DNA of 64,000 nt, taken from assembly GCF_963921235.1 (NCBI RefSeq), contig NC_086108.1:47618001-47682000 (forward strand). Reading direction: 5' to 3'. How positions within the stretch are numbered: position 1 is the stretch's first letter; every line of letters begins with the position of its first letter. Below the pieces are notes generated by a model. That model was not told the DNA's origin, ran no database searches, and saw only the letters and a program-made list of their open reading frames with translations. Made by a program: the position numbers and the translations under genes. Source of the DNA: Mobula hypostoma (lineage: Eukaryota). This document shows, piece after piece, positions 5,422 through 55,755 of the stretch.

Positions 5422-5804
5422 TAAGCTTTTTTGTCAGTGAGAGCTGAAGAGAGAAGATGCGAGAGGAGAAAGCTGGTAGACCGCAGGACAGAGTGGACTT
5501 AAAGTGAAGGTCTGGGAGTCGATGACACTCGGAGGAAATCGATAGGGAATAAATGGATGGAAAACCATGAGCTCCAAAGTGCAAGTTAGACTGTTTCATT
5601 AAAAATGGTCCCTTTTTCTTTTTGTTTTCTTTATTAACCCTATAATCAAATTAAGAATTATAAATCTCAATTGCACATGGCGTACTGTCTGATATTTTGT
5701 GGTATTGATTTGTAACAGGGGAAAACATCACACAGCATCCATACAAACGAAATTGCACAAGTCTTCCTCTGGACTAACGTTCCCAGCCGAACCTGACGGT
5801 TACA
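5422..5804 (+). mobile_element. Possible partial 3' LTR of the Gypsy element
   Basis: Non-coding segment directly after the truncated integrase, ending in GGTTACA (LTR-like CA end). No second LTR copy in the window to confirm. Confidence 0.35.
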
Positions 5805-18179: not shown

Positions 18180-20022
18180 TGGACGGAGGTGTTGGAAATG
18201 GATCAGGTAAATTTGAGGGCATGGTGGAAGTTGGAGGCAAAGTGGGTGATGTCGATGAGTTCAGTATGGGTGCAGGAAGCAGCACCAATGCAGCCATTGA
18301 TGTAATGTAGGAAAAGTGGTGGATGGCCACATAGACTGTTCCATGTAGGCGACAAACAGGCAGGTATAGCTGGGACCCATGCGAGTGCCCATGGCTATAC
18401 TTTTCATGTAGCCAACAAACAGGCAGATATAGCTGGGACCCATGCCATGTAGCCGGCAAACAGGTTGGTGTAGCTGGGTCCCATACAATGTAGCTGTCAA
18501 ACAGGCAGGCATGTTTTATAATTTCACTTTTAATGTCACTCCTAATAATTTCTCCTTTGGCTCCTCCCACTTCTTTCAAACAAAAGATGTAGAGTGCTTC
18601 CTGCACTCAATGCAGAACTTGTCAACTTCATCCACTTTGCCTCCAACTTTCACCCTGCCCTCAAACTTACCTGTCCATTTCTGACATCTCACTCCCCTTT
18701 CTCAATCTAAATGTGGAGACAGCTTATCTACTGATGTCTATTATAAACCCACAGACTCTCACAGCTACCTGGACTATATCTCCTCCCACCCTGTTACTTG
18801 TAAAAACGCCTTCCCCTTTTCTCAATTTCTCCATCTCCACATCTGCTCTCAGGATGAGGCGCTTCATTCCAGAACGAAGCAGATGTTTTCCTTCAAAGCA
18901 AGGGGCTTCCCTTCCTCCACCATCGACACTGCTCTCAACCGCATCTCTTTCATTTCACACACGTCTGCTCTCACCCCTTCCTCCTGCTACCCTACCAGGG
19001 ATAGGGTTCCTCCCATTCTCACCTACAACCCCATGAGTGGCTGTGTCCAGCACGTAATTCTCCGAAACTTCCGCCATCTCCAAAGGGATCCCACCACCGA
19101 GCACTCTTGCCCTCCTCCCCTCTCCCACTTTCTGATTTCTGCAGGATTAGCTCCCTACGTGACTTCCTTGTCCATTCGTCCCTCCCCACAGATCTCCCTC
19201 CTGGTACTTGCTCTTGCAAGCAGATCAAGTGCTACACCTCCACCCTCCGTACCATTCAGGGTCCCAAGCAGTGCTCCCAGGTGAGGCGACACTTCACCTG
19301 TGAGTCTTTTGGGTCATATCCTATGTCTGGTGCTCCTTGTGTGGCCTCCTATGTATCGGTGAGACCCGATGTAGATTGGAAGACTGCTTTACTGAGCGTT
19401 ACACTCCGCCTACCAGAAAAAGTGGGATGTCCCAGTGGCCACCCATTTTAATTCCACTTCCCATTCTCATTCCAATGTGTTGATGGTTGGCCTCCTCCAC
19501 TGTCGTGATGAGGCCACACTCAGATTGGAACAACACCGTGTATCCTGTCTGGGTAGCTTCCAACCTGATGGCGTGAACATCGATTTCTCAAACTTCCAGT
19601 AATGCCCTTCCCCCCCCCCACTCCTTTACCATTCGCCATCCCCTTTTCCCTCTCTCACCTTATCTCCTTGCCTGCCCATCACCTTCCTCTGGTGCTCCTC
19701 CCCCCCTCCCTTTTCTTTCTTCCATGGCCTTCTATCCCCACCTATCAGACTCCCCCATCTCCAGCCCTGTATCCCTTTCACCAAACAACTTCCCAGCTCT
19801 TTATTTCACCCCTCCCCCTCCAGGTTTCACCTATCATCTTGTTTCTCGCCCTGCTCTTTCTTCCCCCCCCTCTTTCTCCCCCCCCCCCCACCGGACTTTT
19901 AATTCTACTCCTCACCTTTTTTCTCCAGTCCTGCTGAAGGGTCTTGGCCTGAAACATCAACTACTCTTTTTCCACAGATGCTGCCTGGCCTGCTGAGTTC
20001 CTCCAGCATTTTGTGTTTGTTG
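18180..20022 (+). mobile_element. Penelope-like element (RT end, GIY-YIG region, pyrimidine-rich tail), 5' part rearranged
   Basis: AMGTRMGPSY.CLFV is on the - strand. TDVYYKPTDSHSYLDY.SSHP, GIY-YIG-region remnants, PVATHFN and the terminus GATGCTGCCTGGCCTGCTGAGTTCCTCCAGC are on the + strand. Confidence 0.85.
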
Positions 20023-21009
20023 CTGGGAGCAAAGGATGTTGGGAATGGTGAGTGTGGAGTGCAGCAGGAGGAGTGTGGGACAGGTAGCAGCAGAGTGCTA
20101 GGGTGGGGGGGAACATTAGTGCAGGTGCAGACACACCCAGCCCTGAGACACCAGAGCAAGGTAATTTGATTCTAAACAATTGGTGTATTGATAATTACAG
20201 AATGTCTCTCTGGTGCTTCCTGTTCCCTCCCCCTTTTCCCAACCATATTGCCCTCTCCCTGTCCCCTTCCCACTATCAGTCCACAATAGAGACCCATATC
20301 AGAATCAGGTTTATCATCACTCACATAGGTCAAGATTTTTTTTACAGCAGTAGTACAATGCAGTACATAAAATTACTACTATACTGTGCAAAAGTCTTGA
20401 GGCTGATTTATACTTGTGCGTCAACTCAATGCCGTAGGTATGGCGTCGCTGCAAACCCTACGTGGATCCCTACACTGTAGCCTGACACGCACCTCTCCCA
20501 AAATGTAACTACGTGTTACAGCAACGTAGACCGCAACAACTGTGATTGGTCTGCCTGGTAGCATCGCATTTCCTCCTACGCTGCAATACCTTCCCATTGG
20601 CTGACCAAAGGGCAGGGAAGGAACTCTGGCTGCAATGCTTTCCATAAAGCTTTACAGACCTCCAAAATTATGGGGACACGTTTCGCTTTTACGAAAAAAG
20701 TCGCTCGCTTTAAACTTGTTTACCCCGAGAAAGACTACCATGTCCATGAAGCTTTGCACGGGCAGGTGTGTGCGCATGCGCGACATGCCCGAATTGCAGA
20801 GCGACGCAGGCACACCAACACACAAGTATAAATGCTCACAACGGCGTTGCCCACTTGTGTAGGTTACGGCGTTGAGTTGACACACAAGTATAAATCAGCC
20901 TTTAGGTACCCTTACTACATAGTTCCTATCCACCTATAGTTCCTTAGGTGTATATGTGTATGTACATTTGTATGTATATGTATATATCTAAGACTTTTGC
21001 TCAGTACTG
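20022..21009. mobile_element. Non-autonomous Tc1/mariner-like element (same family as 34141-34650 and 37160-37635), interrupted by a MITE
   Basis: Shared body (GCAAAGGATGTTGGGAAT..CCAGCCCTGAGACACCA) and TIR-like CAGTACTGTGCAAAAGTCTTAGGCAC. Confidence 0.7.
20400..20901. mobile_element. MITE with ~36-bp TIRs (AGGCTGATTTATACTTGTG..), probably PIF/Harbinger
   Basis: TIRs match with 2 mismatches. Flanks TTG and TTA fit a TWA-type TSD with one change. CpG-rich interior. Confidence 0.8.
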
Positions 21010-22670: not shown

Positions 22671-22849
22671 CAACACACATCGAAGTTGCTGGTGGGCCAG
22701 GCAGCATCTCTACGAAGAGGTACAGTCGACGTTTCTCGGCCTGAAACGTCGACTGTACGTCTTCGTAGAGATGCCGCCTGGCCTGCTGCGTTCACCAGCA
22801 ACTTTGATGTGAGTTGCTTGAATTTCCAGCATCTGCAGAATTCCTCATG
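22671..22849. mobile_element. Fold-back PLE mini-element with 14-bp TSD
   Basis: Near-perfect palindrome centred at ~22738. TTTCTGTGTTCTTA is duplicated at 22657-22670 and 22850-22863. Confidence 0.85.
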
Positions 22850-23331
22850 TTTCTGTGTTCTTATTTGATTTTGTGACATGAGATTTTGTGGAATCGTGTA
22901 TGACTGCTTAGCACTCCTAGGATCATTCCATTCTGATTGTAAGTGTTGGCTGAAAAATATGAATTTGCTAGGAGGAATACATCAGTTTATTGTCTGATTA
23001 GAGTGAAGAACAGCTGGCTCAATTTTGGCATGCCCACAGAGGTTTGTGAAGTTGATTTTTGGAAGTTTGGCTGAAATGGACAGCAAGTGAGAACTTGCAG
23101 AAAATCTACTGAGATTTGTTTTTGCCATTTCTTTCCATGGAGCTAATTAGTCTAATGTGGTAGTGAAGGTAATGTCTATGAGAGGGCAGACTGAGGCCCA
23201 CCCATGAGATGACAAGAAAAAATGTCCTCTGATTTGGTCTGGATGGCCTAAAGAGCTAAGCAATGTTAAATATTTTTTAGAACTTCATAAACGTAACTGT
23301 TCTCAATAAATACAAAAAAATGAAACAGCTT

Positions 23332-27069: not shown

Positions 27070-27500
27070 TCTGTGCATTTTGCAGCTCATATATTCTTTC
27101 AATTATGTTCCTTTGTCTCTGAAAGAGCAAGGACAGAGACAGTGACCACAACCACAAGTTATACAATAGCCTTGGAGTGGGATAGGAACAGATGGTATGG
27201 GAAAGTATTTAATTGAGGGAGAGAGAAGTATAAAGCTATTTGGCAGGAACTTGGGAGCATAAATTAGAGATGGGATGTTCTCAAGGAAATGCTCAATGGA
27301 AATGTGGAGTTTGTTTGGGGAATACTTGCATGTGTTTTTGTCCCATTGAGTAGGAAAGGATAGTATGGTGAAGGAGTCATAGTTGACAAGAGAAGTGGAG
27401 CACCTAGTCAAGAGGAAGAAAGAAGCTTGCTTAAGGTTTAGGAAGCAAGGATCGGTCCAGGCTCTAGAGAGTCAGAAGATAATCTGATTGGAGCTGAAGA
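27070..27500 (+). mobile_element. CR1 ORF2 fragment (end of endonuclease region), decayed
   Basis: Similar to the CR1 at 59900-60100 (SDHN.ISF.I.LE.DR region, GGAACTTGGGAGCATAAAT). Confidence 0.6.
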
Positions 27501-28227
27501 ATAAACTTGGGAGAGTTCAAGGATAGTATCTGCCCTGCTGTTATAAGACTATTAATACAGAGTCCTAGTATATGATGAACTCTTTATCTCTCAAATCTAC
27601 TACACGATAGGTTTGCACCCTATTTCTCCCTGCACTGCAATTGCTCTGTAACATTTTATTCTGCATTGTTATTATTTTATTTTGTCTTGCATATCATTCA
27701 TTACAACCATACACTGAGATAGTACAAGTTTTTCACTGTATGTTCGTACATGTGACAATAATAAACCAATTCGCAATGTTGAAAGCAGTGTTGTCTATTC
27801 TCAGGCGCAGTTGATAAACTGGATTTCTTGTATAGTATCCAGAATGTATAAGTGATGAGCTGAAGAATAGACTTATGAGAGCTCAAAGACAGCATGTTAC
27901 CTTGCTTTTATAAGACTTGAACAATACCCTAGTATATGATGAAGTCTTGATTTCATAATCTAGTGTGTTATGACTTTGCATCTTATTATTTGCCTGCACT
28001 ACACTTTCTCTGTAACGGTAATACTTTATCCTGTGCTGTTATTGTTTTACCTTGAATTGATCTGTTTTGAACAGAATGCAAGACAAGTTTTTCACTGTAC
28101 CCTGTTACAAGTGACAATAATAAACCAATTTGCCAATTTAAGCAAGAGGAATGAATCTCGAGCATAACTTTTATTCTAATAATAATTTGGTACTTCTTCC
28201 TTTTTAAGATTCTCAGGTGAAATAAAG

Positions 28228-28308
28228 ATGTCAAGAAAACATTCAAAGCACAAGGGAGAGAAGGATAAATCTCAATCAAATTCACGAAGGCACACCCCCA
28301 ACTATTCT
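28228..28308 (+). CDS. SWT1: SWT1 first coding exon: MSRKHSKHKGEKDKSQSNSRRHTPNYS (exon begins at 28217)
   Basis: Acceptor ttctcAG at 28215-16, ATG at 28228, donor GTAAGG at 28309, phase 0. Basic N-terminus as in vertebrate SWT1. Confidence 0.8.
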
Positions 28309-29668
28309 GTAAGGAGACTTTTTACTTCCATTTTGTTTTGGTTCAAATGTCATCATGGCATCTTCCTGCATTCCGTGCTTATCCCACCAGCTATGCACCT
28401 CCTAATCAAAATTTGCATTTTCTTTAACTGAATGCATTTTAAAAAAATATGGTACTTTTATCTTCTTAGGCCCTAATGTTTTGTATGTTCTGTAAACTTC
28501 AACTAGTAACTTTCAGAAATGTGATCCTACAAATATCAGCAAGTCAGTTCTAGCAACTCTTTCTACTTGATGCATTAAATGGAATTGATCACATTCAATT
28601 TGTCTTCATTTTCAAGTGTTGTTGTCTTAATAACTACTTTGCCTTATGGAGGTAATGTGACATTCCAATAATTGTGATTTTAAGAAATAAAACCTTTTTG
28701 TGTAATTTTTTTTACATTTTAAGTTATCTTGGATAGGAAGGAATTTGTTTTGAAATGCATCTATAGTTGGTGTGAAGGTTAAAAGACATAATTCTTTTTA
28801 CTTTTTAATATTTCGAAATAGACTTTAATCATGAAAATAAATGCAGTGGATTCAGGTTAATTGGGACACATCAGGATGAGTGCATTTTGATCCAATTAAA
28901 CGGCTGCCCCAATTAGCCAAAGTTTCTTGAAAAAGGTATAAAATTGACAAACTACCATTTAACTGAGTAACATATTATGTATTTAAATGAAATACAGAAC
29001 AAATTACAGCACTATCAATACTATTACAGTACTATAAAACAGTATCAATTCCTAATTGTTATTTACAGAAGAATTCATCCAGTGTACCTGTACACTGCTG
29101 CGTTCTTTTGATTGACTGTAAACTAATAAAATCAGCGCAGGCGCCTAGTGTAGATAATGAATTGCCTTCATACAATGCTATCAGTGACTGCATCCTCAAA
29201 ATCTTCGTTTCTATTGGAACATGCAAGATGATGTCGATACCTTAATTCTTATTTCCTTACTCGTTGAAATAGTGAAATCAGCAGTCAGGCAGCATCTATA
29301 GAAAAAGAGTACTGCTGACGTTTCAGGCTGCTGAAGGGCCTTGGCCAGAAACATCAACTCTACTCTTTTCCATAGATGCTGCCTGATCTGCTGAGTTCCT
29401 CCAGCACTTTGTGGGTGTTGCTTGGATTTCCAGCATGTGCAGATTTTTTCTTGTTTGTGAAGTAGGGAAATCATTTCATTTTCACTCCCAGCTGTTTGTA
29501 GCATCTCCAAGCCTGAATGCTTGAAACTTCAGTGATCAAAACAGTTCTGAGTTGTCTTTTTCAAAAACGCAAACAGGAGGAATTCTGCAGATGCTGGAAA
29601 TTCAAGGAACACACACCAAAGTTGCTGGTGAACGCAGCAGGCCAGGCAGCATCTTTAGGAGGAGGTAC

Positions 29669-29704
29669 AGTCGACGTTTCAGGCCGAGACCCTTCGTCAG
29701 GACT
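29669..29704 (-). ncRNA. Minimal type I hammerhead ribozyme motif (intact core)
   Basis: - strand reads AGTC-CTGACGA-AGG GTCTCGG CCT-GAAA-CG-TC-GACT. Confidence 0.8.
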
Positions 29705-30242
29705 AACTGAAGGAAGAGTTAGTAAGAGATTTGAAAGTGGGAGGGGGAGAGAAAGCCCCCTTTCTCCACCAGAGAAAGCAGGATCTCCCAGTGGCCACAC
29801 ATTTTAATTCCACATCCCATTCACATTCTGACATGTCTATCCACTGTAAAGATGAAGCCACACTCAGGTTGGAGGAACAACATCTTATATTGCGTCTGGG
29901 TAGCCTCCAACCTGATGGCATGAACATTGACTTCTCAAACTTCCGCTAATGCCCCACCTCCCCCTCGTACCCCATCCGTTATTTATATACACACATTCTT
30001 TCTCTCACTCTCCTTTTTTTCCCTCTGACACTCTGACTATACCCCTTGTCCATCCTCTGGGTTTCCCCCCCCCCCCTTTTCCTTCTCCCTGGGCCTCCTG
30101 TCCCATGATCCTTTCATATCCCTTTGGCCAATCACCTGTCCAGCTCTTGGCTCCATCCCTCCCCCTCCTGTCTTCTCCTATCATTTTGGATCTCCCCCTC
30201 CCCCTCCAACTTTCAAATCTCTTACTAGCTCTTCCTTCAGTT

Positions 30243-30278
30243 AGTCCTGACGAAGGGTCTCGGCCTGAAACGTCGACT
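30243..30278 (+). ncRNA. Minimal type I hammerhead ribozyme motif (intact core; predicted cleavage after C30274)
   Basis: Stem I AGTC/GACT, core CTGACGA (30247-53), stem II AGG/CCT, GAAA (30267-70), palindromic ACGT helix III, GUC triplet. Confidence 0.8.
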
Positions 30279-30759
30279 GTACCTCCTCCTAGAGATGCTG
30301 CCTGGCCTGCTGCGTTCATTAGCAACTTTGATGTGTGTTGCCTGAATTGTCTTGCTGCTTATTTCTCACTAACTATCAGTGACAAAAAAAACTGCTTTTT
30401 TAACACAGGTGCACGCAACTGACACTATTTAAAAACTCTAGGCATGGTGTAGTGCACGACTCTGATGCTAGTTAGAAACTGTCTCCTACATAAGAAATAG
30501 GAGCAGGAGTAGGCCAGCTGGCCTGCCAAGCCTGCTCCATCATTCAACAAGTTCATGGCTGATCTGGCCATGGACTCATCTCCACCTTACCTGTCTTTTC
30601 CGCATAATCCCTACTTCCCCTACTATGTCTCTTGCCCCAGTTAAGCAGTTTAGTGTCCAAAATAAATGAAGGAAATTCAGGCTATTATCTAGATTAGTTT
30701 ATGTTCTCTAAGAGTTATGCCAAATAAGTGGCTGCTCCAATTAACCAGAATCCACTGTA

Positions 30760-32330
30760 TACAAAGAAAGAAACGGTGCAAAACAATAAAATCTTTACAT
30801 TCATGGTAAGTACGTTTGATAATATAAACTTTAAAGAGAAAAGGTACAGACGAACATAACACCATTGCCACTCATGTGACCCCCCCCACAGAGGTGATGT
30901 ACTCTTTGTTCAAGGAGGTTCCCCCACTCAACTTAGCCCCTCAATGTGCAGTAGCAGAAGGAGGTTATACTGTGGTTCTTCCCCGCAATCTTAGCATTGC
31001 TTCAGTGCATCCCTCACCAATCCACTCCAGCCAATTCCTGTTACTCGCCTTAACTATTCCGAACCAGTCCCCAGCACCTACAGACAGTCAGGCTCGACAT
31101 TGGATCGATTGGGCCAGCGGGCCAGCTACTGAACAGTATGGCCTTGGTTGTCCTGCATTTGACTCTGGCTCTTGATGCTAACTTGAACTGGTCACAGATG
31201 CTGATCAATCTGTGAACTGACCACAGCGTCATCCATGTACACGGAGGTTTTGACTTTTGTGTTTTAGGAGAGCACAGCCATTATGTACATGTGATATCCT
31301 GTGGAAAGCTGATTAGGCAGGCATGTACCCCTCTGTCCTGTACTTAGACAATAGTATCCCTGAGTAGCATGAGGCTGTCAGAGATTGCCCTCCCTGGTAC
31401 AGCATGGGTTTGGTCTGGGTGGATCACCTGTCCCAGAGCTGACTTGTCCCAATTGGCTATGGTTTTGGACCGGATTTTTTTTTAATTACACGTTCAAGGT
31501 AAAAATGGGTCTCCAATTCCTGACGTCTTCCATCTCTCCTTTCTGCTTTTTGATGATTTCATTTCTCATGGAAACTGACAAGTTGCCAGCCAGAAACATT
31601 GCATTATACACTTCCAGCAGGTCAAGGCCCATTTGGCCCCACAGAGTCTAGTAGAACTCTACTGGTAAGCTGTCACTTCTGGAAGTTTCATTCATGCCAA
31701 GAGAATGAATGGAGCCAGTTAGCTCCTCCAAGGTCAGTGGCTGATCTAGACTCTCCCTTTTGCGATTGCCTAGCACCTCTGAACAAGAGAAGGAAGTTCT
31801 GGGAGACTGTGCTGTCTGTGATCTTGCTGTCACACAGATTGACATAAAAGGATCTGCAGATCCTTAATATATCTGTATGTAAGATTGTTACTGAGCCATA
31901 CGCTTCCTGTGGACCTTTTGGAAGAAGCGTGAACATGTCTTGCTCCACAAAGCAGTTCCTGGATCAGAAGGTGATCCTGGAGGATTCAGAGGCAAAGAGC
32001 CCAGCTTGTCTGTTCTTCACCTCTTGGAATTCCTTTCTCATATTCACCCGCCTTGACTGCAGAGGAGAGGTTGATGCAAATCTCTCTGGGTGTTATGCAG
32101 TTCCCTCTGACTGGCTTGCATTGGTGCTTCACATCAACTCCAAGGAGTCACCCCCCCCTTCCCCCTCCCCCACCACCTCTTTGGCCTCGATCATAGAGAA
32201 GTTGCCTCCTGGCAGCAGAATACCCAGACCGGATGTGCGCCTCTCATTTTCACCCTGACCATAAAGACAGTCCCTGGGAATATCATCGCGTCCACCTCCC
32301 TTTGTTGCAGAGGTGTGGCAGCCTACACTC
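30760..32330 (-). mobile_element. Tx1/L1-clade LINE remnant, internally deleted
   Basis: - strand peptides ICRSFYVNL and LDQPLTLEELTGSIHSL..SDSLPVEFY resemble the ORF2 region before RT. Confidence 0.65.
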
Positions 32331-32839
32331 CTGCAAAAAAAGTGTCTTTGTTATTACAGCTTCAAGAAGATCAGTTGTAATTCTTTCACAACTTTGTATT
32401 TATATATCCATGTTAATTCTCCTATGTTAGTCATGCCCTTCTAGTTGAAGATTAATACTGTTATTTAAGGAGTTTCCCCCTTGTATTTTGTTCACACCAA
32501 GGTTAGGCAGATTGTCCTATGATTACCATTTTCTTTCTCTTTAATCAGTGATTTTACTTGACCATTTTTAGACAGGAAGAACTGAAAAAATGCTTGCTGC
32601 TTGCTTTTCCTTAACAGAATATCAACTTGTCTATTTTTAAAGTCACTAAGCCTCTTAATTATTATTATCCTAATTATTTTTTATCCGTTCATTATTTTAC
32701 CCGCATTTCTGCAATGTTCTCTTGTTTGACAAGTCAGTTGCTTGGCATACTATGTTTTTTTTGTCGTAAGTATTGTGCCAAGAAATAAGAAATTTTTAAA
32801 GTAAATTTTGCATTCAATTATTTTTCTTATAAGCTCTCA

Positions 32840-33810
32840 GAGCAAATTTAATTCTGTATCAAATGAGGAAGTGGACCAAGGAATAACAGATGGAACTTAA
32901 CCTTTACGTGTGATTTGTTGCATTTTTGGAATTTAAACCGCGGTGGGACTTGCATAGTAAATGACAAGACCTTGGGGAGTATCATAGAACAGAGATTTAA
33001 GGGTTCAACATAGGTAGACAGGATAAAGAAGAAGACATTTGGCATGTATGGACAGGGCATTAAGTAAGTGCAGGAGTTGGGATGTCATGTTACAGCTGTA
33101 CAAGATGTTGTTGAGATCCCACATGGAGTATTATTAGAGTTACAGGCACCCAGTTATTGGAAAAATGTACTTGGGCTGGAAAAGTTGCAGAAAGGATTCT
33201 CAAGGATATTCACAAACAAGAGAAAATCTGTAGATGCTGGAAATCCAAGCAGCACACACAAAATGCAGAAGGAACTCAGCAGGCCAGGCAGCATCTATGG
33301 AAAAGAGTAAACAGTCGGTGTTTTGGCCTTTTTCCAAAGATGCTGCCTGGTCTGCTGAGTTCCTCCAGCATTTTGTGTGTGTGTTTCTCAAGGATATTAC
33401 TGGATTGGAAGGCTTAAATTATAAGGAGAGACTTGATGGGCTTGGACTCCCCCCTTCTCTTCTCTCCCCCCCCCACCAGAATGTCGGCAGCTGAAAGGCG
33501 ACAGAGTTAAATGCTGTAGAATCATAAGGGGCATAGATAAGATAAGTGGTCACAAACCATGGATTTGGAAGTCTAAAACTAGAAGCGAAAAATTTAAAGG
33601 GACGTGAAGGGCAACATTTTATCACAGTGCATGGTGTTACATGGAAGGAACTGCCGGACAAAGTGGTAGAGTTGTGTATAATTAAAATGTTTAGATGATG
33701 TTTAGACAGATTCATGGTTAGAAAAGTTTCAGTAAGTGCAGGCAAATGCTGGTAGCTTGTGTAAGCGATTTGTTTGGAATGAATGAGTTGGGCTGAAGGG
33801 CCTCTTGTAT
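32840..33810 (+). mobile_element. CR1 LINE 3' part, decayed, interrupted by a PLE fold-back mini-element (33211-33384)
   Basis: CR1 C-terminal remnants (LEKLQKGFSRI, GLEGLNYKERL). TSD TTCTCAAGGATATT at 33197-33210 and 33385-33398. Confidence 0.8.
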
Positions 33811-34140
33811 GTGAATCACAGTTTGTGATTTTGTTGCTGTCAAATTTCTGTGTAGTAATTCCTGTTATCCAAACAACTGATGCAAGAATCGTCTGTACAT
33901 GTATCCCAGGGTCTTCCTGTTCTATAACACTCATCAGGGCCCTGCCATTCTGTGTGATACAGTCTGAATTAATTTCCAAAGTGTATCACTTCACATTTGT
34001 ATAAATTTAAGTTCCATCAGCCATCCCTTTGCCCATTTTCGAAGTTGAACTTGATCTTGTTGTAACCTTAAACTTCTTCACTGTCCATTATACCTCTAGT
34101 TTTGGTGTCATGTGCAAACTTACTAGTTATGTTACCTATA

Positions 34141-34650
34141 CAGTATTGTGCACAAGTCTTAGGCACATATATATATATATAGCTGGTGTGCCTAAGACTT
34201 TTGCACCGTTCTGTATTTGTCAATGTGGTGCAGAGAGAGAGTTTGTAAATCTGGCGGGAGCAAAGGATGTTGGGAATAGCGAAGGTGGAGTGTCACGGGA
34301 GGGGTGTAGGACAGGTGGCAGAGAAGGAGTGCCAGGGCAGGTAATGGCATGGGTTCAGACATGCCCAGCCCTGAGACACCAGGCAAAGTTATTTGATTCC
34401 TGACAACTGTTTCATTGATCACCACAGAATGTGTCTCTGATGCTTCCCACTCCCTCCTGTCTACCTTCCGCTTTTCCCAACCTTGATTCCCCTCTCCCTG
34501 ACCCTTTCCACTCTCAGTCCACACTAGAGACCTATATCAGAGTCAGGTTTGTCATCACACATATATAAAGAATTTTTTTATATGACCACAGTACAATGCA
34601 ATACATAAAATTACTACAATACTGTACAAAGGTCTGAAGTACCCTATATA
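34141..34650. mobile_element. Non-autonomous Tc1/mariner-like element with hairpin termini
   Basis: TA|CAGTATTGTGCACAAGTCTTAGGCAC-(AT)n-GTGCCTAAGACTTTTGCACCGTTCTG|TA at 34141-34213, followed by the shared family body. Confidence 0.75.
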
Positions 34651-35287
34651 TCTCTTATCTATCTCTCTGTAGCACACAATTGATTACATAATCTCCAATC
34701 TAAAAAGCAAAAGGGAATTTTCAGGGCCCATTGTATATCAAATGTATCCAACTCATTTTGTTTGATATACATTAGTAAACTTCAGATGTACTTAAATTAA
34801 AGAGCAGATGTTAGGTTATCAGCCTGATTAGCATGCTAATGACATTAGCATTACAGGCAAGTAGATAATCTAAAATTTGGCAGTGTTACTATCTGAGTGA
34901 CATAAATGTTTGTTATTACAGTGCTGAGTCTGCAAAGCCATATTTCTTTGGTATTAATGTGAAACTTTGGAGAGTATGTTTGCATTTCAGTTCTGCCTCC
35001 TTTAGTTTCCCTTCTCATTTGAAGCTAATTGTTCATAGTCAGTTCCAGTGTTGATAACGAATGCTTAAACTCAATTCAGGTAAAGTAAGCAGCTTTTCCT
35101 TCCAAAAAGATATATCTGGATACCTCACTCTGAAATAGTGTTTTTTTTTCTGGGTTGGGGTGATGGTAAATTGATCTATTGGTTCATTGACTCTGAAATC
35201 TATCATTGATCTTTTCTACTCTGTTCCACTGTCTTGCTCTTTAACTGATCCATGTTCATTCTACCCAAAAACCTGAACAATTATTAG

Positions 35288-35389
35288 GGAGAAAAAAGCA
35301 AGATTGAGCAGAAGGCACAGTATAGTGGAGGGAGCTCATTACCAGGACAATCTTCCTTATCGCCATGCACTGAAAAAAGAAGAAAACTG
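35288..35389 (+). CDS. SWT1: SWT1 coding exon 2 (102 nt): GEKSKIEQKAQYSGGSSLPGQSSLSPCTEKRRKL
   Basis: Acceptor attAG, donor GTGAGC, phase 0-0. GEK..EKR(R)KL resembles mammalian SWT1. Confidence 0.8.
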
Positions 35390-36772
35390 GTGAGCTTTTG
35401 CATGTATTTTTTGATATTAATCTATCAAATCAGGCTTCATGACAGTTTGCTGATTCATTCCATAGGTTTATGAACCTGAAATTTTTTTTTGTACTAAACT
35501 GCACAGCATACAACATTGAAGTACAATGATAATAAATGTAGCATGAACGAAAGTTAGTACACCCAACTGCCAATGGTGGCTTATTGGTAAAGCAGTTGGA
35601 ACTGTGCTGCTTACAGCCATGTCCTTGTGGTAATCTGGATGATATTTGAATTAACATCAAAGTACGTGGAAAATGAAATGATTAGATTGTGAACCACTTG
35701 CTCCTGCTCTGCCATTCATTAAAATCAAAACTGATCTTGTACCTTAAGTCAATTTTCCTAGCCAGCTTGCATATGCATTGATTCTTATTTTACTCACAAC
35801 ATAGAAGGCATTTGGTACCAGTGAGTTTATGCAGATTTGCAAAGCACTCCCGTTGGTCTCATTCCTTTATTTCCCTGCCATTATTCCCTCTATGTCTATT
35901 GACAGATTTTGCTGCCATCCACCTATATCAGGAGAAATTACAGTAGCCAAATACAGTTGTTAGCAGGTCATAGAAATGTAGAAGAAAAACAGCTCCTGGG
36001 ATAAATGCATGTTGTCATAGGGAAAGTGGACTGTATCCAAGATGGGTTTTAAACCTGGGTATCTATGTGGCAACAGCCTTTACTCACATCACCCTTTGTT
36101 GTACAGTTCCCAAGGCAAATTTGCCCATTGGTTTGAATGTCAAAATTGCAGAATACCTCAAGTATAATTCCACAAAAGCAATAAAACTACCCTTGTCTTC
36201 TGCACTTCATAAACTAGCACAGTAAAGATCTACTGTAGGTACACCAGTATTTAATCATTCTGTTCTATTAAACACACTATCTGGATATGTGTTTAATTGC
36301 TTCTTTAAAAATCTAGAATTATTAAATCCATTAATTTCCTTGTTCCCTTAAATACTGCTAGACTTCTCAAACACATTTTCTTTCAATAAAACCATGTTGA
36401 ATTTCTCTAGTCATATAATGGTTGTAATTGCACATTGAGCAAGAATGAATTCCAGCATTTTCCTGAAGGCAATCTCAGACTAATTAACTTTTAGTTTTCT
36501 ATTTTCTCTTTATTTCTCAAATGTCTGTATTAAATTTGTGATTTTCCAACTTACTGAATCTGGTTTCATTTTGTGTTGTTTCCATAAACTGCAGTTCTTC
36601 CAAAATTGCAAGATGTGATCTTGAAGAGCTGCTTGAGGGTTAACAAGAGTTTTGAAGGAACTCAATGGATTAGAGATGTAACACTGAGTTTGTAATCAAT
36701 ATTTTCTATTGGGAAGTTATAAAATGTTCTGAATTTTGACCATCTTATATTGTATTATATTTTCTTCATTAG

Positions 36773-36846
36773 AGCCATCTGGAGGTAGAAACTCTAAAAA
36801 CAGTGAAACGGTCCCCGGAAGATCAGGCAAAATCTTTCTGGCCCAG
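36773..36846 (+). CDS. SWT1: SWT1 coding exon 3 (74 nt): SHLEVETLKTVKRSPEDQAKSFWP(R)
   Basis: Acceptor ttcttcattAG. Donor AG|GTCTGT is weak but supplies the phase 2 needed by the next exon. Confidence 0.6.
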
Positions 36847-36910
36847 GTCTGTATTGGAGATATTTCTGGAGGTAAAGATTAATCAAAGAAAAGCGATATA
36901 TTAGTAGTTT

Positions 36911-37079
36911 AGCAACACATATCAAAGTTGCTGGTGAACGCAGCAGGCCAGGCTGACGAAGGGTCTCGGCCTGATACGTCAACTGTACCTCTTCCTGTAG
37001 ATGCTGCCTGGCCTGCGTTCACCAGCAACTTTGATGTATGTTGCTTGAATTTCCAGCATCTGCAGAATTCCTGCTGTTT
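36911..37079. mobile_element. PLE fold-back mini-element with decayed hammerhead (GAAA changed to GATA)
   Basis: Inverted arms. CTGACGAAGGGTCTCGGCCTGATACGTC at 36953-36980. TSD-like ATTAGTAGT(T/C)TA on both sides. Confidence 0.75.
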
Positions 37080-37159
37080 ACATTAGTAGTCTATATAGTT
37101 TCAATACAATTGGAAGTTTTTCTAGAAGTGTGATGTAATGTGAAATATATTCTGTATAT

Positions 37160-37635
37160 CTAGGGTGCTTTATACCTTTGCAGAGTACTGTATTTATCAA
37201 TGTGGAGCGGAGAGTGAGTTTGTAAATCTGGTTTTGCAAAGGATGTTGGGAATGGTGAGAGTGGACTGTTGTGGGAGGGGTGTGGGACAGCTGGCAGAGA
37301 AGGAGTGCTGGGGTGGGGGGAGAGGGTGTTGGTGGCATGGCTGCTGACATACCCAGCCCTGAGACACCAAGCAAGATCATTTAATTCCAAACAATTGGCT
37401 AATTACGAAATGTCTCTTTGATGTTTATTGCTTCCTCCCCTCTTCCTGCCCCCTTCCCACTCTCAGTCCATAATGAAGACCCATATCAGAAGCAGGTTTG
37501 TCATCACTCACACATATGTCAAGAAATTTGTTTTTTAGTAGCAGTACAATGCAATACATATGTTATTACAATACTGTGCCGAAGTCTTGGGCACCCTAGC
37601 TATATATATGTGACTAACACTTTTGCACCGTACTG
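37160..37635. mobile_element. Non-autonomous Tc1/mariner-like element (third copy)
   Basis: Same body as 34214-34620; terminal hairpin at 37569-37635. Confidence 0.7.
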
Positions 37636-37934
37636 TATGTACAGAAGTGTGAGGCCATAGCTTCCTGAAAATGGTGACACAGGTGGATAGGGCAATTGGC
37701 ATGCTTGCCTTCAAATGCCACAGCACTGAGTATCAAAGTTGGACATCACATTACAGATGTACAAAGCTTTGGGTAGACTTTGAAGTACCGTATATAGTCC
37801 TGGTCGCCGTGCTATGGAAGGATGTGGTAGCAGTCAACTGGAATATCATGGCCTAATAGCTGTACTTTAGAGATTAATAAATGTTGGGTGTATTGTCTGT
37901 AATGAAGGAGACTGAGGGGTGATATTATAGATAA

Positions 37935-38480
37935 CCAGTTGCATATTGGGGACTGCTTCACCAAGCAGCTTCACTCCATCCACCATGCCAGCCATGATCT
38001 CCCAGTGGTCAGCCACATCTCTCTACAGCTTCTCCATAGCCAAGTCAAGGCTAACTGCAAATTAGAGGAACCATATTCCACCTCCAACCTGAGGACATGA
38101 ATGGTGAAATCTCAAACTTCCAGTAGTGCTTCCATCAGTCCCTTTTCCTCTTTCTTTTCTCTTTTTCTGATCCACCTAGTTGCCAACATGCTAGCAACAC
38201 ATAAAATGCTGGAGGAACTCAGTAGGCCAAGCATCATCTATGGAAAAAAGTATGGTTGCTTTTTGAGCTGAAACCCTTCCGCAGGGTTTCGGCCCAAAAC
38301 GTTGACTCTGCTTTTTTCCATAGATGCTGCCTGGCCTACTGAGTTGCTCCAGCATTTTGTGTGTGTTGCTCAGATTTTCAGCATCTGCAGATTTTCTCTT
38401 GTTTGCCAACATTTCCCCTTCCCCACCTTCTCCATCTGCCCATCACTCACATACTCCTCCCACTGGTTCCCCTACCCTTG
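37935..38480 (+). mobile_element. Old PLE GIY-YIG tail with a nested fold-back mini-element (~38190-38402)
   Basis: GATCTCCCAGTGG..TTAGAGGAAC..CTCCAACCTGA remnants. TSD TTGCCAACAT flanks the palindromic insert. Confidence 0.65.
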
Positions 38481-38738
38481 AGAACTTCTGTTACTGTTCT
38501 TAGATCTCTCTATGACTGAATACAGTCCATGAAGCTGATTTTATGGCATTTGTACTGACATTTAAGTTCAGAAATTGAAAGTCTGTTTTAGACCACAATG
38601 ATTTTTTGGTTCAGTAAGGAGTTGATAATATCCACCACAGTGGCCAGTCTATTGCCACAAGTCCAGAATAAAGGGAGGCAGCATTAAGCAAACATTGGAA
38701 CTAAGATTGTTGGGGATTTTGTTTGTTTCTTTACTTAG

Positions 38739-40104
38739 ATCAGCAGATTCAAGTGAAAAAAATAAATCCAAATCAGAGAAACACAAATATCACACTGCTT
38801 CATTGAAGTCATCATCATCTGATGATAAAAACACCAGGCACAAATTAAAACAAAAGAAGAAGCATAAGAAGCATTCACGAGAGGAAAGTAAGGAAAAAAA
38901 GCACCACAGTTCATCATCTACGAAACATGCAGCTGATACGTATGTCTCGGAAGCACAGCCAAATGAATTACAGAGATGTAAAAGATGTCAATCTTCCAAA
39001 TTTTGTAAACATTTATTTAAATGCGAAGCAAAGCTATCATCAGCAGAAGTAGATCCTGAGGTGCTGAAGACAAAAACATGTGGCCCTACATATGAAAACT
39101 TGCAAAATGATTTTCAATATTTTGTTAACAAAACATATTTTTTGAAAAAAGCTGAAGAGACTTGTGAGAGTGATATAACTAATCATTCGACAATAGAACC
39201 TACAGGGGCAGCAAGCAAACTTACTTCATATGATAAATCTAGAGATCTTTTAAAGGAATTTGAGAGTAAAGAACAAACAAAAAATTCTCCGGCGTTGCAA
39301 GATGAATCTAATTATTCAGATACAGTGCAAAATTCTGAAGGTTCCAGAGAAGTTCTGAAAAACATTGAAGAATTAGGTGGTTTCAAAAATAAATCTCACC
39401 ATATGAACTTGCATGAAAAGTCTAAAATATCTAAAAATGAGTTTGATGTGTGGAAAGTAACCAATGCACCTCTGAGACCTGTCAAAAATACAAATTTTAA
39501 TGATGGTTCAAAATTTCTTGAATCTAGTTTTTGGGAGAAATGTAACAAAATATCTAATTCCTTGCGAGTGCTCAGAAAAAAATCTAAAACTTTGGAACGG
39601 GTCAGAGATGAAACCAGCACTGAAAGAACGTCTTCCCATTTGACAAAATTCTCAAAAAAATCTGGTGATGATTTGAAACTGTCGGAGGTGAAAAAAGCCA
39701 ACATTTCAATTGAAGAATCAACAACCTCAGGAACAGATAACAGAGTGTTCAATCTCCCTAAAAGGCCATCTAATGATTCTAGAAGCACCAAATCAGTCAA
39801 TGAAGGAAAGGAAATTTTGGAATATTCACCAAAACATGAGGCTTCAAATTCTCAGCAATCCAGAATCTTTCAAAGAACTGAAATACTTACATTTTCATCG
39901 AAGAACTCTCAGAATGCTGAGCAATTGAAAATGACAAAACCTGAAAAAAAGTTTCAAAGTTTTAAAATTGCTAGACCCTGTGTCATCGATGCACTACCTC
40001 AAGCTGGGTCTAAAAAGTTATTAACTTCAGATGGGAAATCTTCGGACAATTCTACAAAATCTACCTCTCTACTGCAGAATCTCGTATTGGCCCCACAACA
40101 GCTG
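38739..40104 (+). CDS. SWT1: SWT1 coding exon 4 (1366 nt), large K/S/E-rich low-complexity region
   Basis: Uninterrupted frame within ORF 38695-40176. Acceptor ttacttAG (phase 2), donor CTG|GTAATG (phase 0). In frame with the downstream PIN exons. Confidence 0.88.
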
Positions 40105-47505: not shown

Positions 47506-48217
47506 GTTAGTAAATAAAAGTTCATTATGAAAATGCATGAAAACAAAACTGGTATCGATGATTTCAGGGTGAGAGACATGAAAAATATTTTGAATACTTA
47601 AGGAATTGTTGAGGCCAAAGCATCAAAATTGGGTCTGCTGTAATTTTTTAATATTTGGAACTTGTAATCCAATTTGGAAATCAAAGCATTTTCATGCAGG
47701 CTTAAATCAAAAGTACCAATAATACCAATCTAATAAGGTATAACAAATACTTGCATACTGATACTGATCCAGCTGTATTTTCCACATTTAAATTTTATCT
47801 TAATCAGTAGCATTTGCAATTCAGTAATGAGGTAAAAATTTGTATATTTGAAAATAATTATATAGGTCATCAATGTGTTTTGTGGTTGAAGTAGCGATGG
47901 CATTTCATGATAGAAATTTTATTTTTGGTTTGGTCATACAATTATATTGATTCAAAACTCAATGTTTTGAGTAACTTATGGAGATTTGTAAGTAGGCACT
48001 CTAGGAAGAGTTGCTGAATTTTAAACGGATAAATTTGCTGTTATGGGAAACTAATATTTAACACAGTAATCACTCTTGTAGTTCTCTGCATGTATGGGAT
48101 GGATGCCACTGCTGTTGATTATTTCAATGATAAAGATGTAGGAGATATTTCCTTTAAATTATTGCGATTCACAGTGTGTATGCAGTGTAACTATATAATT
48201 AATTTCTACAATTACAG

Positions 48218-48406
48218 GTGTTGGTTTCCCAATCTTAGTTATCCCATGGGTTGTGCTCCAGGAACTGGATTCCTTAAAGAATGGAAAGCTATCTGGAGGT
48301 GTCAATCGCAAAGCTGTACCTGCTGTACATTTTGTTTATTCCTGCTTCAAAGGTCGGCATCCACACGTATGGGGCCAATCTATGCAGCAAGCAGCTCAAA
48401 AATTCT
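48218..48406 (+). CDS. SWT1: SWT1 coding exon 8 (189 nt), PIN domain: (G)VGFPILVIPWVVLQELDSLKNGKLSGGVNRKAVPAVHFVYSCFKGRHPHVWGQSMQQAAQKF
   Basis: Acceptor attacAG, donor GTAAGT, phase 1-1. Resembles SWT1 IIPWVVMQELD..KAIPAVHFI..LWGQS. Confidence 0.95.
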
Positions 48407-49287
48407 GTAAGTAGAAGTATAATCATTGTATCTGACACTGACCTCTAGGTCATTAGTGAATAAGAAAGAAAAATAAGTTTCAAGTTTACCTTGTAGTTTA
48501 TTATAAGCCAATTTACTGTTATCAAAAACAATCAGAAAATACTACATTTTTTATTCTCGTTACACATCACTGTCCTATTCACTGCTTTTATGTCACTGCT
48601 CTCACATTTTATGTAACATTCATTTTCCGGCAGTTTTACCATTTTCTTATCTGAAGCCATTTGAATACTGTTGGTGTTTGGATCCTTAACTGGTCACATT
48701 CCAAACCTTGCTTAGTAGGCAATTTTGATGTGTAAGCGAAGGTGATATCAATCTATAGATTACTTGGAAGTGAAGGAGAAAAGAAACGGGCTAAATTGTG
48801 TCCTTGCCTGACATGCAGTTGCAAACAATTACTGAGCAGAAATTGTTAGTCTGCACGTGGATTGAAATGCTTTAATTAAAAATGTTAAATCTTCTGAAAA
48901 AAGTTATGAAGTAATTTATTAATAGATATATTTTCATTTGTTAGTTAACATTTGCAGAGTTTTAAATCTTTCACTATTTTCCCAGTGACTGGGCTTGGTT
49001 GTTTTGTCTGCTCTCATTACATATGAAGAGTGTGTTTGGTTTCACTTTAAAATATGTATATGTGCGTCTGGCCAGTAGTGAGGCAACTATGATTTGATTT
49101 GTATGTTTGTTTCACTGTAGAGCACAGTTACTTTAGTTTTAAATTGTTGAAAATGCAGTTATAGTGATTTAAAGGAAGCTTGAGGTTTAGATAATTTAAA
49201 AATTTATTTTATTGCCAGGTGCATTTTCTATTGAATAAAGGGCAGCATAATTGATGAAAAATATTTATTGTCGATTCCTTTCGTTTA

Positions 49288-52666: not shown

Positions 52667-55600
52667 TTTCTTTCTTTCTTTTTAAATCTTTTTATTAATT
52701 TTCAAAATTATAAACTCAATAACAAAGTTGGTACAAAGAGATTGGAATAATCTTAATCAGCATATACAAAAAGGATTTTAAGTTACATAGATATAATAAA
52801 CTTCTAAACTCATAATGAAATTAGCCATTAAAAAAAGAAAGAAAAAGAAAAAATATATATGTAAACAAAGAAAAATCCCCAAAAGAAAAGGGAAAAAAAA
52901 ACCCCAAAAAAACAGAACAAAACAGGGCTAGACCAATATCTTGAATCAGACACGTTCAGTAATGTCGTCAACTCCGCACCTCTATTCATATAATTTAAGT
53001 TTAAAGAAAGATTCGGAAAGGTCAGATTACATCATATGAAAATGTTGCATAAAAGGTTTCCAAGTTTCTTCAAATTTAACCAAAGGGTCAAAAATATCAC
53101 TTCTAATTTTTTCTAAATTTAAACTTAATATAGTTTGAGAAAACCATTGGAATGTAGTAGGAGGATTGATTTCCTTCCAGTTCAACAAAATAGATCTTCT
53201 AGCCATTAAAGTAACAAATGCTATCATCCGACAGGCTGAAGAAGACAAAGATCTATGTTCTACCATTGGCAATCCAAAAATTGCCGTAATAGGATGGGGT
53301 TTTAAATCAAAGCATAGAACTGTTGAAATAATATCAAAAATATCTTTCCAATATATTTCCAGAAGAGGACAGGACCAAAACATATGAGTTAAAGAAGCCA
53401 CCTCAGAGTGACATCTATCACAAGTAGGGTTTATATGGGAATAAAAATGAGCTAGTTTATCTTTGGACATATGGGCTCTGTGTACTACTTTAAATTGTAT
53501 TAATGTATGTTTAGCACATATAGAAGAAGTACTAACTAATTGGAAAAATTTTATCCCATTTCTCTATAGGTAGACAAAGTTGAAGTTCCCTTTCCCATTC
53601 ATTTTTAATTTTATCAGATATACCTGGCTGTAATTTCATAATTATATCATAAATAATTGCTATTAATCCCTTCTGCAAAGGATTTAAGCCTAAAATTTTA
53701 TCAATAATGCCAGTAGGATTTGAAGTCGGAAAGGTAAGCAACATAGTATTTAAAATATTTCTTATTTGTAAGTATCTAAAAAAAATGGGATCTAGGCAAA
53801 TCAAATTTCTTAGATAACTGCTCAAAAGACATAAAACAGTTATCCAGAAATAAATCATGAAAACATATTATACCTTTCGTTTTCCATATCAAAAAGGCTT
53901 GGTCCATTACTGAGGATTGAAAAAAGAAATTAGATATAATAGGACTTGATAACATACATTAATTCAGGACAAAAAATTTACGAAATTGAAACCATATTCG
54001 CAATGTATGTTTAACTATAGGGTTAAACGTTTGTTTATTCAGTTTAGATAGTACAAAAGGCAGTGAAGTTCCTAAAATGGAACTTGTACAGAGTGGCCTT
54101 CAAAGTTTACCCAATATGGGCTTGGAGTTATATTCCAATCTTGCGTCCAAAATATTAAATATCGAATATTAATTGCCCAGTAATAAAATCTTAGGTTAGG
54201 CAATGCCAAACCACCCTCTTTCTTAGATTTCTGTAAGTATTTTTTACTTAATCTGAGATTTTTATTTTGCCATATATAAGAGGAAATTTTAGAATCAATA
54301 GTATCAAAAAAAAGTTTTAGGAATAAAAATTGGTATTGTTTGAAATAAATGTAAAAATTTAGGTAAAATAATCATTTTAATAGTATTGATTCAGCCAATC
54401 AATGATAGAGACAATGGGGACCACTTAGTAATCAGTTGTTTAACCTGATTAATTAATGGTAAAAGGTTAAAATTGAATAGATCCTTATGTCTCTTAGTAA
54501 TTTCAACTCCTGGGTAAGTAAAATAGTCAGTCACTCTAAGTGGAGAATTTCTATAAGTGGGAACCTGCATATTTAATGGAAAAAGTTCACTCTTACCTAG
54601 GTTCAATTTATAACCAGAAAAACTACTAAACTGACCAAGCAAAGTTAATAATGCCGGAATAGATTTTCCTGGGTTAGAAATATATAAAAGTAGATCATCT
54701 GCATATAGTGATAATTTATGAATCTCATTTCCACGGGTAATACCAAATATATTAGGGGAGTCACGAATGGCAATAGCTAGCGGTTCCAAAGCAATATCAA
54801 ATAGTAGTGGACTAAGAGGACAGCCCTGCCTAGTACCACGGAATAGATGAAAAAGAGGGGATCTTTGATTTTTAGTAAATACAGAAGCCAAAGGGGTAAG
54901 ATGTGTCAATTTAATCCAAGATATAAATATCGAACTAAAATTAAATTTCTCAAGGGTGTTAAATAAATATGTCCATTCAACTCTATCAAAAGCTTTCTCA
55001 GCATCCAATGAAGTAACACATTCTGGAATTTCGGGTGAAGGCATATAAACAATATTCATTAATCTCCTAATATTAAAAAAGAGTAACGATTTTTAATAAA
55101 TCCAGTCTGATCAGCAGAAATAATTTGAGGTAATACATTCTCCAATCTCATTGCCAATATTTTAGAAGACATCTTAGAATCCACATTCAGCAAAGATATA
55201 GGCCTATAAGATGCACATTCAGTAGGGTCCTTATCTTTTTTAAGAATTAGGGAAATAGAAGCTCGATAAAAAGATTGTGGTAATTTACCTATAGATACTG
55301 CATCCCTAAAAACACGACGTAGCCAAGGGGTCAGTGTAGTAGAGAAAATTTTTTAAAATTCTACTGTAAATCCAACTGGGCCAAGTGCTTTACCTGAATT
55401 CATCGAAAAAATAGCATTCTTTATTTCCTCTACTGTAATAGGTACATCTAGTTTTGAACGTTCATTAGATGATAATTTTGGAATATTCAATTTCTTAAAA
55501 AGTTCATGTGTTATATTAGATTCATTAGGACATTCTGATTGATATAAGGAGGTATAGAATTCTTGAAAGGATTTATTAATCTCATCCTGGTCAATTGTCA

Positions 55601-55755
55601 AAGTGCCATCTTGTTTATGAATCTTAAGAATCTGTTGTTTAACCGAGGCCGATTTCAATTGATTAGCCAAAAGTTTCCCAGTTTTATCACCATGTATATA
55701 AAATTGACTCTTAGTTTTGATTAATTGACTTTCAATTGAAGATGATAATAAGAGA
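52667..55755 (-). mobile_element. L1 LINE, 5'-truncated, with 14-bp TSD
   Basis: SLDAEKAFDRVEW, GTRQGCPLSPLLF, LYADD, CDRC..HMFWSC. TSD TTAACAACACT(A/G)TC at 52653-66 and 55756-69. Confidence 0.95.

What the first reader, a model, noticed from the sequence alone, without database searches (positions are those of the whole stretch)
29565..30348. Two intact minimal hammerhead ribozyme motifs in opposite orientation within a PLE in an SWT1 intron
Seen: identical motifs AGTC-CUGACGA-AGG(GUCUCGG)CCU-GAAA-CG-UC-GACU at 30243-30278 (+) and 29669-29704 (-), embedded in ~150-bp near-perfect inverted arms. Helix III is only the palindrome ACGU. Established: PLE termini carry minimal hammerheads with a palindromic helix III that are thought to cleave as dimers. 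Inference: the + copy is transcribed in SWT1 pre-mRNA, where it could either self-cleave after C30274 or be sequestered by pairing with its own antisense arm ~450 nt upstream. That pairing would silence it and form a long dsRNA (potential ADAR substrate).
Basis: partly seen in the sequence, partly recalled or inferred. Interest (0 to 1): 0.75.

Follow-up and report, generated by a model that had tools for sequence, protein, structure and literature searches.

The report
Ordinary Penelope fold-back with passenger hammerheads
This is a broken, mirror-ended copy of a very abundant jumping gene lying in an intron; its tiny ribozyme motif is one of tens of thousands of identical copies in the genome and is predicted to be locked inactive by pairing with its own mirror image, so it is most likely ordinary repeat debris rather than a gene switch.

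Summary
In detail: identical 36-nt minimal type-I hammerhead motifs at 30243-30278 (+) and 29669-29704 (-) in 151-nt arms, 95% complementary, inside a spliced GT-AG intron, 28309-35287. It is not special. The exact 36-mer occurs 32,886 times in the genome. 19 of 60 sampled family loci have the same head-to-head layout, 18 of those 19 with the tail on one end only, as here. Core letters decay like non-core letters in inserted copies and I found no helix covariation. Opposite-strand min-HHR pairs 100-700 bp apart and inverted pLTRs are in print (PMC4209133, PMC3846280). Folding predicts full masking of the sense motif by the earlier-transcribed antisense arm, no intact partner motif lies in cis in the window, and published min-HHRs are inactive as monomers. 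Corrections: helix II likely uses the register with an unpaired A after A9, giving G10.1-U11.1 where relatives mostly have G-C. Cleavage and editing were not testable (contigs only). The scan noted this family and layout before on other DNA of this genome. Verdict: known kind, low interest.

The parts
28208..28308 (+).
   Evidence: Spliced contigs in 4 of 4 runs
28309..35287 (+). GT..AG intron of 6,979 nt that holds the element
   Evidence: Joint 28308 to 35288 in 4 of 4 runs, one study
29569..29607 (-). PLE 'tail', about 38 nt, present in full only on the inverted arm
   Evidence: Two classes of 3' ends among 30 loci; blast of pLTR
29599..29749 (-). Inverted, 5'-truncated pLTR (left arm)
29669..29704 (-). 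Minimal type-I hammerhead motif, antisense in the host pre-mRNA
29749..29766 (.). Head-to-head junction with a 7-bp/4-nt-loop micro-palindrome; family similarity of the sense copy starts at 29765
   Evidence: Sequence
29765..29949 (+). Last ~60 codons of the PLE GIY-YIG endonuclease, 5'-truncated after the catalytic motifs, with a 12-nt deletion against relatives
   Evidence: Translation matches C-termini of family loci; the longer relative L005 scores GIY-YIG PF01541 above cut-off, L026 below it; the fragment itself has no Pfam hit
29950..30197 (+). Pyrimidine-rich 3' non-coding part of the element
   Evidence: 92-94% identity to the 39 best other genomic copies scored
30198..30348 (+). Sense pLTR end (right arm), without the full tail
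30243..30278 (+). Minimal type-I hammerhead motif, sense in host pre-mRNA; predicted scissile bond after C30274; G10.1-U11.1 closing pair (T30266)

Best explanation
The element is a 5'-truncated Penelope-like retrotransposon copy with an inverted copy of its own end at its head, and the two hammerhead motifs are passengers that likely do nothing for the host gene. Shown: the layout (antisense pLTR with tail, junction, endonuclease fragment, sense pLTR without tail), its commonness, neutral decay of motif copies, and splicing of the host intron across it. Inferred: both arms were copied from one template lineage in one insertion event; during host transcription the antisense arm is made about 450 nt before the sense arm and zips onto it, so the hammerhead never folds (in a head-to-head pair the antisense arm comes first whichever strand is read); the ~150-bp duplex is likely a passive ADAR substrate that leaves with the intron. 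The motif was kept by selection in active master elements, for the transposon's own cycle (likely protein-assisted cleavage, as for the Anolis Poseidon element), not at this locus.
For: 32,886 exact copies; 48,360 flank-anchored copies. 19 of 60 sampled loci head-to-head with both motifs, 18 of 19 with a one-sided tail. Non-CpG core changes 5/740 vs non-core 14/1258, p=0.47; CpG core 4/74 vs 33/518, p=1.0. Both arms share a variant seen in 1 of 87 sampled copies, and arms of pairs are closer than unlinked copies (5.0% vs 6.8%, p=0.003). Fold-back -382 kcal/mol, arm duplex -295, helix I probability ~1e-49; arm pairing is predicted once ~30 nt of the right arm exist, before the motif is transcribed. 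Monomer folds inactive (open-core forms P < 0.001). Other sense remnants in the window have broken cores. In four other organisms the 36-nt motif is the conserved island, with loose ends at 30243 and 30280 and no non-CpG core change at 10% share. Literature: monomers inactive, dimers weak (PMC4209133); Poseidon HHR needs protein and no reads end at the site (PMC11167929).
Against: No cleavage assay or locus-specific raw reads: masking rests on equilibrium folding without proteins or kinetics. hnRNP binding could slow the 450-nt loop closure. With tens of thousands of copies in transcripts, partners in trans are abundant. Spliced mRNA being present does not exclude partial cleavage. The neutral-decay test has few events and samples contig C1 only, and says nothing on selection at this single locus. 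No clean target-site duplication: a 7-nt repeat at 29552 and 30347 sits 10 nt outside the tail end. Only 1 of 19 sampled pairs shares a rare variant between arms, so that line of evidence is this locus's own.
Confidence: 0.87

Rival explanations
1. The sense hammerhead cleaves the host pre-mRNA after C30274 (with a partner in trans or with protein help) and tunes host expression, with the antisense arm as an off-switch.
For: Core letters are all intact; the motif is sense in the pre-mRNA; family transcripts are abundant in the contigs; intronic HHRs with proposed regulatory roles exist in amniotes (PMC10761166, passages).
Against: Masking P > 0.997; no intact cis partner in the window; a hand-drawn double-hammerhead scores -11.5 against -30.3 kcal/mol for a misfolded dimer (nearest-neighbour only); G10.1-U11.1 instead of the conserved G-C; one of 32,886 identical copies; intron spliced in 4 of 4 runs.
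Confidence: 0.04
2. The long duplex, not the ribozyme, matters: it is edited or bound and alters splicing or retention of the host transcript, as inverted Alu pairs can.
For: 151-bp, 95% duplex predicted; young repeats are the main A-to-I targets across metazoans (PMC9989829, passages).
Against: No exon lies between the arms; the element is over 1.2 kb from the donor and 4.9 kb from the acceptor; only the normal joint was listed for these exons (56 further joints not shown); thousands of like pairs exist. No other letter reached 10% in the laid contigs, but that test is blind because multi-copy contigs swamp the locus.
Confidence: 0.05
3. The two arms are independent insertions that happen to abut, or were made alike later by gene conversion.
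For: Family density is high (one core-intact motif per 36 kb); no clean TSD; in 3 of 19 sampled pairs the arms differ at 18-23 of ~141 sites.
Against: Head-to-head pairs 19 against 2 tail-to-tail and 3 tandem in 60 loci; one-sided tail; a shared rare variant; micro-palindrome at the junction.
Confidence: 0.04

Closest known systems
Minimal hammerheads (min-HHR) in pLTRs of metazoan PLEs (Cervera and de la Pena 2014, PMC4209133; read parts 1-2 of 4)
   Same: Type I, 4-5-bp helix I, no helix III stem, palindromic 15.2-16.2, unpaired base between 9 and 10.1, mostly in truncated copies; dual motifs 100-700 bp apart on opposite strands are described there.
   Different: Helix II is about 4 bp (7-8 in Schistosoma); the dominant subfamily here has U at 11.1 (32,886 exact copies vs 4,891 with C); copy number is about ten times the 9,000 given for Xenopus tropicalis (different search methods); motifs are homogeneous, like D. 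virilis.
Inverted-pLTR insertions of endonuclease-bearing PLEs (Arkhipova et al. 2013, PMC3846280; Craig et al. 2021, bioRxiv 10.1101/2021.04.23.441226; passages of both)
   Same: 5' truncation, inverted 5'-truncated copy at the head, 30-40-bp tail on one end, palindrome at the inverted junction, TSD not always present.
   Different: Nothing structural found; this copy is only shorter and non-coding.
Poseidon element of Anolis carolinensis (Frangieh et al. 2024, PMC11167929; read parts 1-2 of 4)
   Same: C-terminal GIY-YIG, HHR in the pLTR, two 3' end classes defining the tail.
   Different: No biochemistry here; RT domain and clade placement not tested.
Conserved intronic HHRs of amniotes, RECK and C10orf118 (PMC10761166, passages)
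   Same: Hammerhead in an intron, sense to the host.
   Different: Those are rare and shown to cleave; this is a minimal motif in a mass-copy young repeat with an antisense twin.
Non-LTR retrozymes (bioRxiv 10.64898/2026.07.22.740005; part 1 of 5 and passages)
   Same: PLE-derived type-I HHR; over 40% of Xenopus copies overlap introns although depleted there.
   Different: Retrozymes are head-to-tail tandems; this is head-to-head and carries ORF sequence.

Membership tests
EN+ Penelope-like element | C-terminal GIY-YIG endonuclease in the family ORF | tested here: met
   Relative L005 PF01541 26.4 bits over cut-off 22.6; L026 20.2 bits, under it; window fragment continues the same C-terminus
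EN+ Penelope-like element | Telomerase-like RT upstream in the same ORF | not tested
   No full-length copy fetched
EN+ Penelope-like element | pLTR in inverted orientation at the 5' end with 30-40-bp tail on one end | tested here: met
EN+ Penelope-like element | Target-site duplication (optional) | tested here: inconclusive
   7-nt repeat at 29552 and 30347, offset 10 nt from the tail end
Penelope/Poseidon clade | RT phylogeny | not tested
   Label rests on resemblance only
min-HHR (type I) | Core CUGANGA, GAAA, UH with helix I closing both ends | tested here: met
min-HHR (type I) | Unpaired base between 9 and 10.1; palindromic 15.2-16.2 | tested here: met
   Preferred register in folding; relatives read GGG/CCC
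min-HHR (type I) | G10.1-C11.1 pair | tested here: not met
   T at 30266 gives G-U; C holds 57-86% of depth in four other organisms. A usual, not obligatory, feature: compensatory changes at this pair are reported in crickets (PMC2837043, one passage)
min-HHR (type I) | Helix covariation across copies | tested here: not met
   Helix I: partner A in 14 of 100 listed rows vs 8 of 100 unselected rows; helix II: about 2 of 100 compensated (counted by eye, first 100 of 2,040, 95,802 and 2,951 matches). A young burst gives little power
min-HHR (type I) | Self-cleavage as a dimer | not testable with these tools
   Needs assay
Rfam hammerhead families | Score at gathering threshold | tested here: not met
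   No match in window nor at E<=10 in 29500-30400
Non-LTR retrozyme | Head-to-tail tandem units each with an HHR | tested here: not met
   Head-to-head, one sense motif per strand

The most novel reading that the evidence does not exclude
The head-to-head layout is a built-in safety catch: because the antisense arm is always transcribed first, such insertions mask their own ribozyme and are tolerated in introns, while solo sense-strand intact motifs are purged. Together with a dominant subfamily that swapped G10.1-C11.1 for G-U yet reached over 30,000 identical copies, the genome would be a large natural experiment on whether PLE hammerheads cut in vivo.
Probability: 0.08. Interest if true: 0.5.

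Novelty: new member of a known kind. Interest (0 to 1): 0.14.

Why it matters
For this locus, little: it is one of thousands of like insertions. At family level the numbers are useful. Whether metazoan PLE min-hammerheads cut in vivo is open (PMC4209133, PMC11167929), and a genome with about 96,000 core-intact motifs, solo and self-masked, in both orientations, allows a well-powered strand-bias test once genes are annotated. The G-U subfamily suggests that optimal catalysis is not needed for amplification (inference).

Tried and rejected
Rfam: no hammerhead match at gathering or E<=10 (four weak unrelated hits, taken as chance). Pfam on the window's endonuclease fragment and five other non-PIN frames: nothing. 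SWT1_3rd search of the genome and PDB search of the PIN exon: blank, uninformative. Sequencing runs: no holder on record as RNA and all are contigs, so 5' ends at 30275, strand and editing could not be read; the tables for other letters and molecule ends were empty, which is no evidence either way. Short unique contigs beside the element (30342-30578) give no expression measure. Covariation inside the genome and across organisms (unphased): none found. A-to-G scars in the 60-locus sample: A>G 14 and T>C 16 rare changes against C>T 63 and G>A 47 (A is 25 and T 41 of 141 columns); not tested statistically. TSD search: inconclusive. Paper searches for PLE ribozymes in sharks or rays and for U11.1 showed no paper on this family or on a G10.1-U11.1 PLE variant; the library is partial and no supplements were read, where alignments of PMC4209133 may hold such variants. 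Look-ups of earlier findings near this place and by sequence: none. Strand bias in introns could not be tested without annotation.

Full report
Observation. The two 36-nt motifs are at 30243-30278 (+) and 29669-29704 (-) and are identical. They lie in arms of 151 nt, 95% complementary, 448 nt apart. All catalytic letters of a type-I hammerhead are present, with C30274 as H17. Rfam gives no hammerhead match. A relaxed core pattern finds 95,802 places in the 3.48-Gb genome against 653 for the reversed control, so the motif class is real. Contigs of 4 of 4 runs from one study splice 28308 to 35288, 35388 to 36772 and 36844 to 38737 on the + strand, so the element is intronic and the right-hand motif is sense. 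A PIN_4 exon follows at 48199-48411. The name SWT1 fits this but is recalled, not confirmed.

Anatomy. From left to right: a ~38-nt tail and an inverted pLTR (29569-29749), a micro-palindromic junction (29749-29766), the last ~60 codons of a GIY-YIG endonuclease (29765-29949, 12 nt shorter than relatives), the 3' non-coding part, and a sense pLTR end without the full tail (to about 30348). The 30 best-matching loci show two classes of 3' end, with and without the tail (5 rows did not print). This is the standard PLE insertion of PMC3846280 and bioRxiv 10.1101/2021.04.23.441226 (passages read): inverted 5'-truncated copy at the head, tail on one end, palindrome at the junction. PMC4209133 (parts 1-2 of 4 read) reports dual min-HHRs 100-700 bp apart on opposite strands. 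A TSD is not clear.

How common. The exact 36-mer occurs 32,886 times. Among the first 100 listed matches, 9 neighbouring pairs within 3.5 kb are head-to-head, 1 tail-to-tail and 2 tandem, which extrapolates to about 3,000 pairs with both motifs exact (contig C1 only). I fetched 60 loci covering the first 74 of the 100 listed flank-anchored hits. 19 of 60 have a head-to-head pair with both motifs; 18 of these 19 have the tail on one end, one on both. 30 of 74 anchored copies are identical to the window motif and 64 of 74 keep the core. Intactness in both arms is therefore expected often (0.16 if independent).

Selection. In inserted copies, core and non-core letters change at similar rates: 5/740 against 14/1258 outside CpG (p=0.47) and 4/74 against 33/518 in CpG (p=1.0). 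Copies selected for a changed helix letter are mostly uncompensated: 14 of 100 in helix I against a background of 8 of 100, and about 2 of 100 in helix II (counted by eye). Across four other organisms, by contrast, contig depth peaks on the 36-nt motif, loose ends begin at its edges, flanking sites are 57-99% changed at several positions, and no non-CpG core letter differs at 10% share. That points to selection in master elements, for the transposon.

A variant. Folding prefers helix II GGGU/GCCU with an unpaired A after A9, the register that PMC4209133 gives for min-HHRs. Position 11.1 is then U. The C form is exact in 4,891 places, and C dominates in the other organisms (57-86% of depth). 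In the anchored sample T outnumbers C 64 to 8 while the mirror CpG change G12 to A is seen twice, so U11.1 came from master elements and not from decay (inference). Its effect on catalysis is unknown; my search found no paper on it.

Mechanism at this locus. Both arms share three subfamily markers and one variant seen in 1 of 87 sampled copies, which fits one insertion from one template lineage. In the host pre-mRNA the antisense arm comes first. Equilibrium folding pairs every base of the sense motif with it (P > 0.997; whole fold -382 kcal/mol), and pairing is predicted from a transcript ending at 30230, before the motif is made, though not yet at 30215. Alone, the motif folds its core into an inactive stem. 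Other sense remnants in the window (29333, 36953, 38280) have broken cores; the gene beyond the window was not examined. Published min-HHRs were inactive as monomers and weak as dimers (PMC4209133); the Anolis Poseidon HHR cut only with protein, was not needed for insertion in vitro, and no RNA-seq reads ended at its site (PMC11167929, parts 1-2 of 4). I conclude that the motif is masked and inert here (0.87). The duplex is a likely ADAR substrate, as young repeats are across animals (PMC9989829, passages), but this is untested: all runs were contigs and multi-copy sequence swamps the locus.

Against my reading. Folding ignores proteins and kinetics; partners in trans are abundant; spliced product does not exclude partial cleavage; the sample tests say nothing about selection on this one copy; only 1 of 19 other pairs shares a rare variant between arms.

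Earlier notes. The scan has noted this family and its fold-backs on other DNA of this genome. Those notes are unchecked AI text; they agree with the reading I had already written down, and one calls the genome a cartilaginous fish, which I did not test.

Verdict. A new member of a known kind; interest 0.14. The boldest open reading is family-wide (self-masking as a safety catch, testable by strand bias in introns), probability 0.08.

Noticed in passing
window 29285-29457: Older, decayed fold-back PLE end of a related family directly left of the element (about 80% alike, core broken); it can also pair with the left arm.
   Followed up: partly
window 22672-22852 and 36911-37079: Two short head-to-head fold-backs of the same family that turn inside or at the edge of the hammerhead motif, each with a tail on one end.
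   Followed up: partly
window 19412-20024: Older PLE 3' fragment with endonuclease end and decayed motif, 66% alike to the element.
   Followed up: no
window 30266: The dominant subfamily in this genome has U at hammerhead 11.1 (32,886 vs 4,891 exact copies); four other organisms mostly have C.
   Followed up: partly
G000:C1:2546804-2546875: Two exact motifs abut head-to-head with no spacer, a perfect 72-nt palindrome.
   Followed up: no
window 28208-28308, 35288-35388, 36772-36844, 38737-40104: Exon chain of the host gene from spliced contigs; about 173 nt of further 5' sequence lies outside the stretch laid.
   Followed up: partly
window 27491-28133: Imperfect direct repeat with about 364-nt spacing.
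   Followed up: no
window 3243-5424; 500-2587 and 53027-59689: Decayed frames that read like a Gypsy-type pol (+) and several LINE-type RT remnants (labels from recollection).
   Followed up: no
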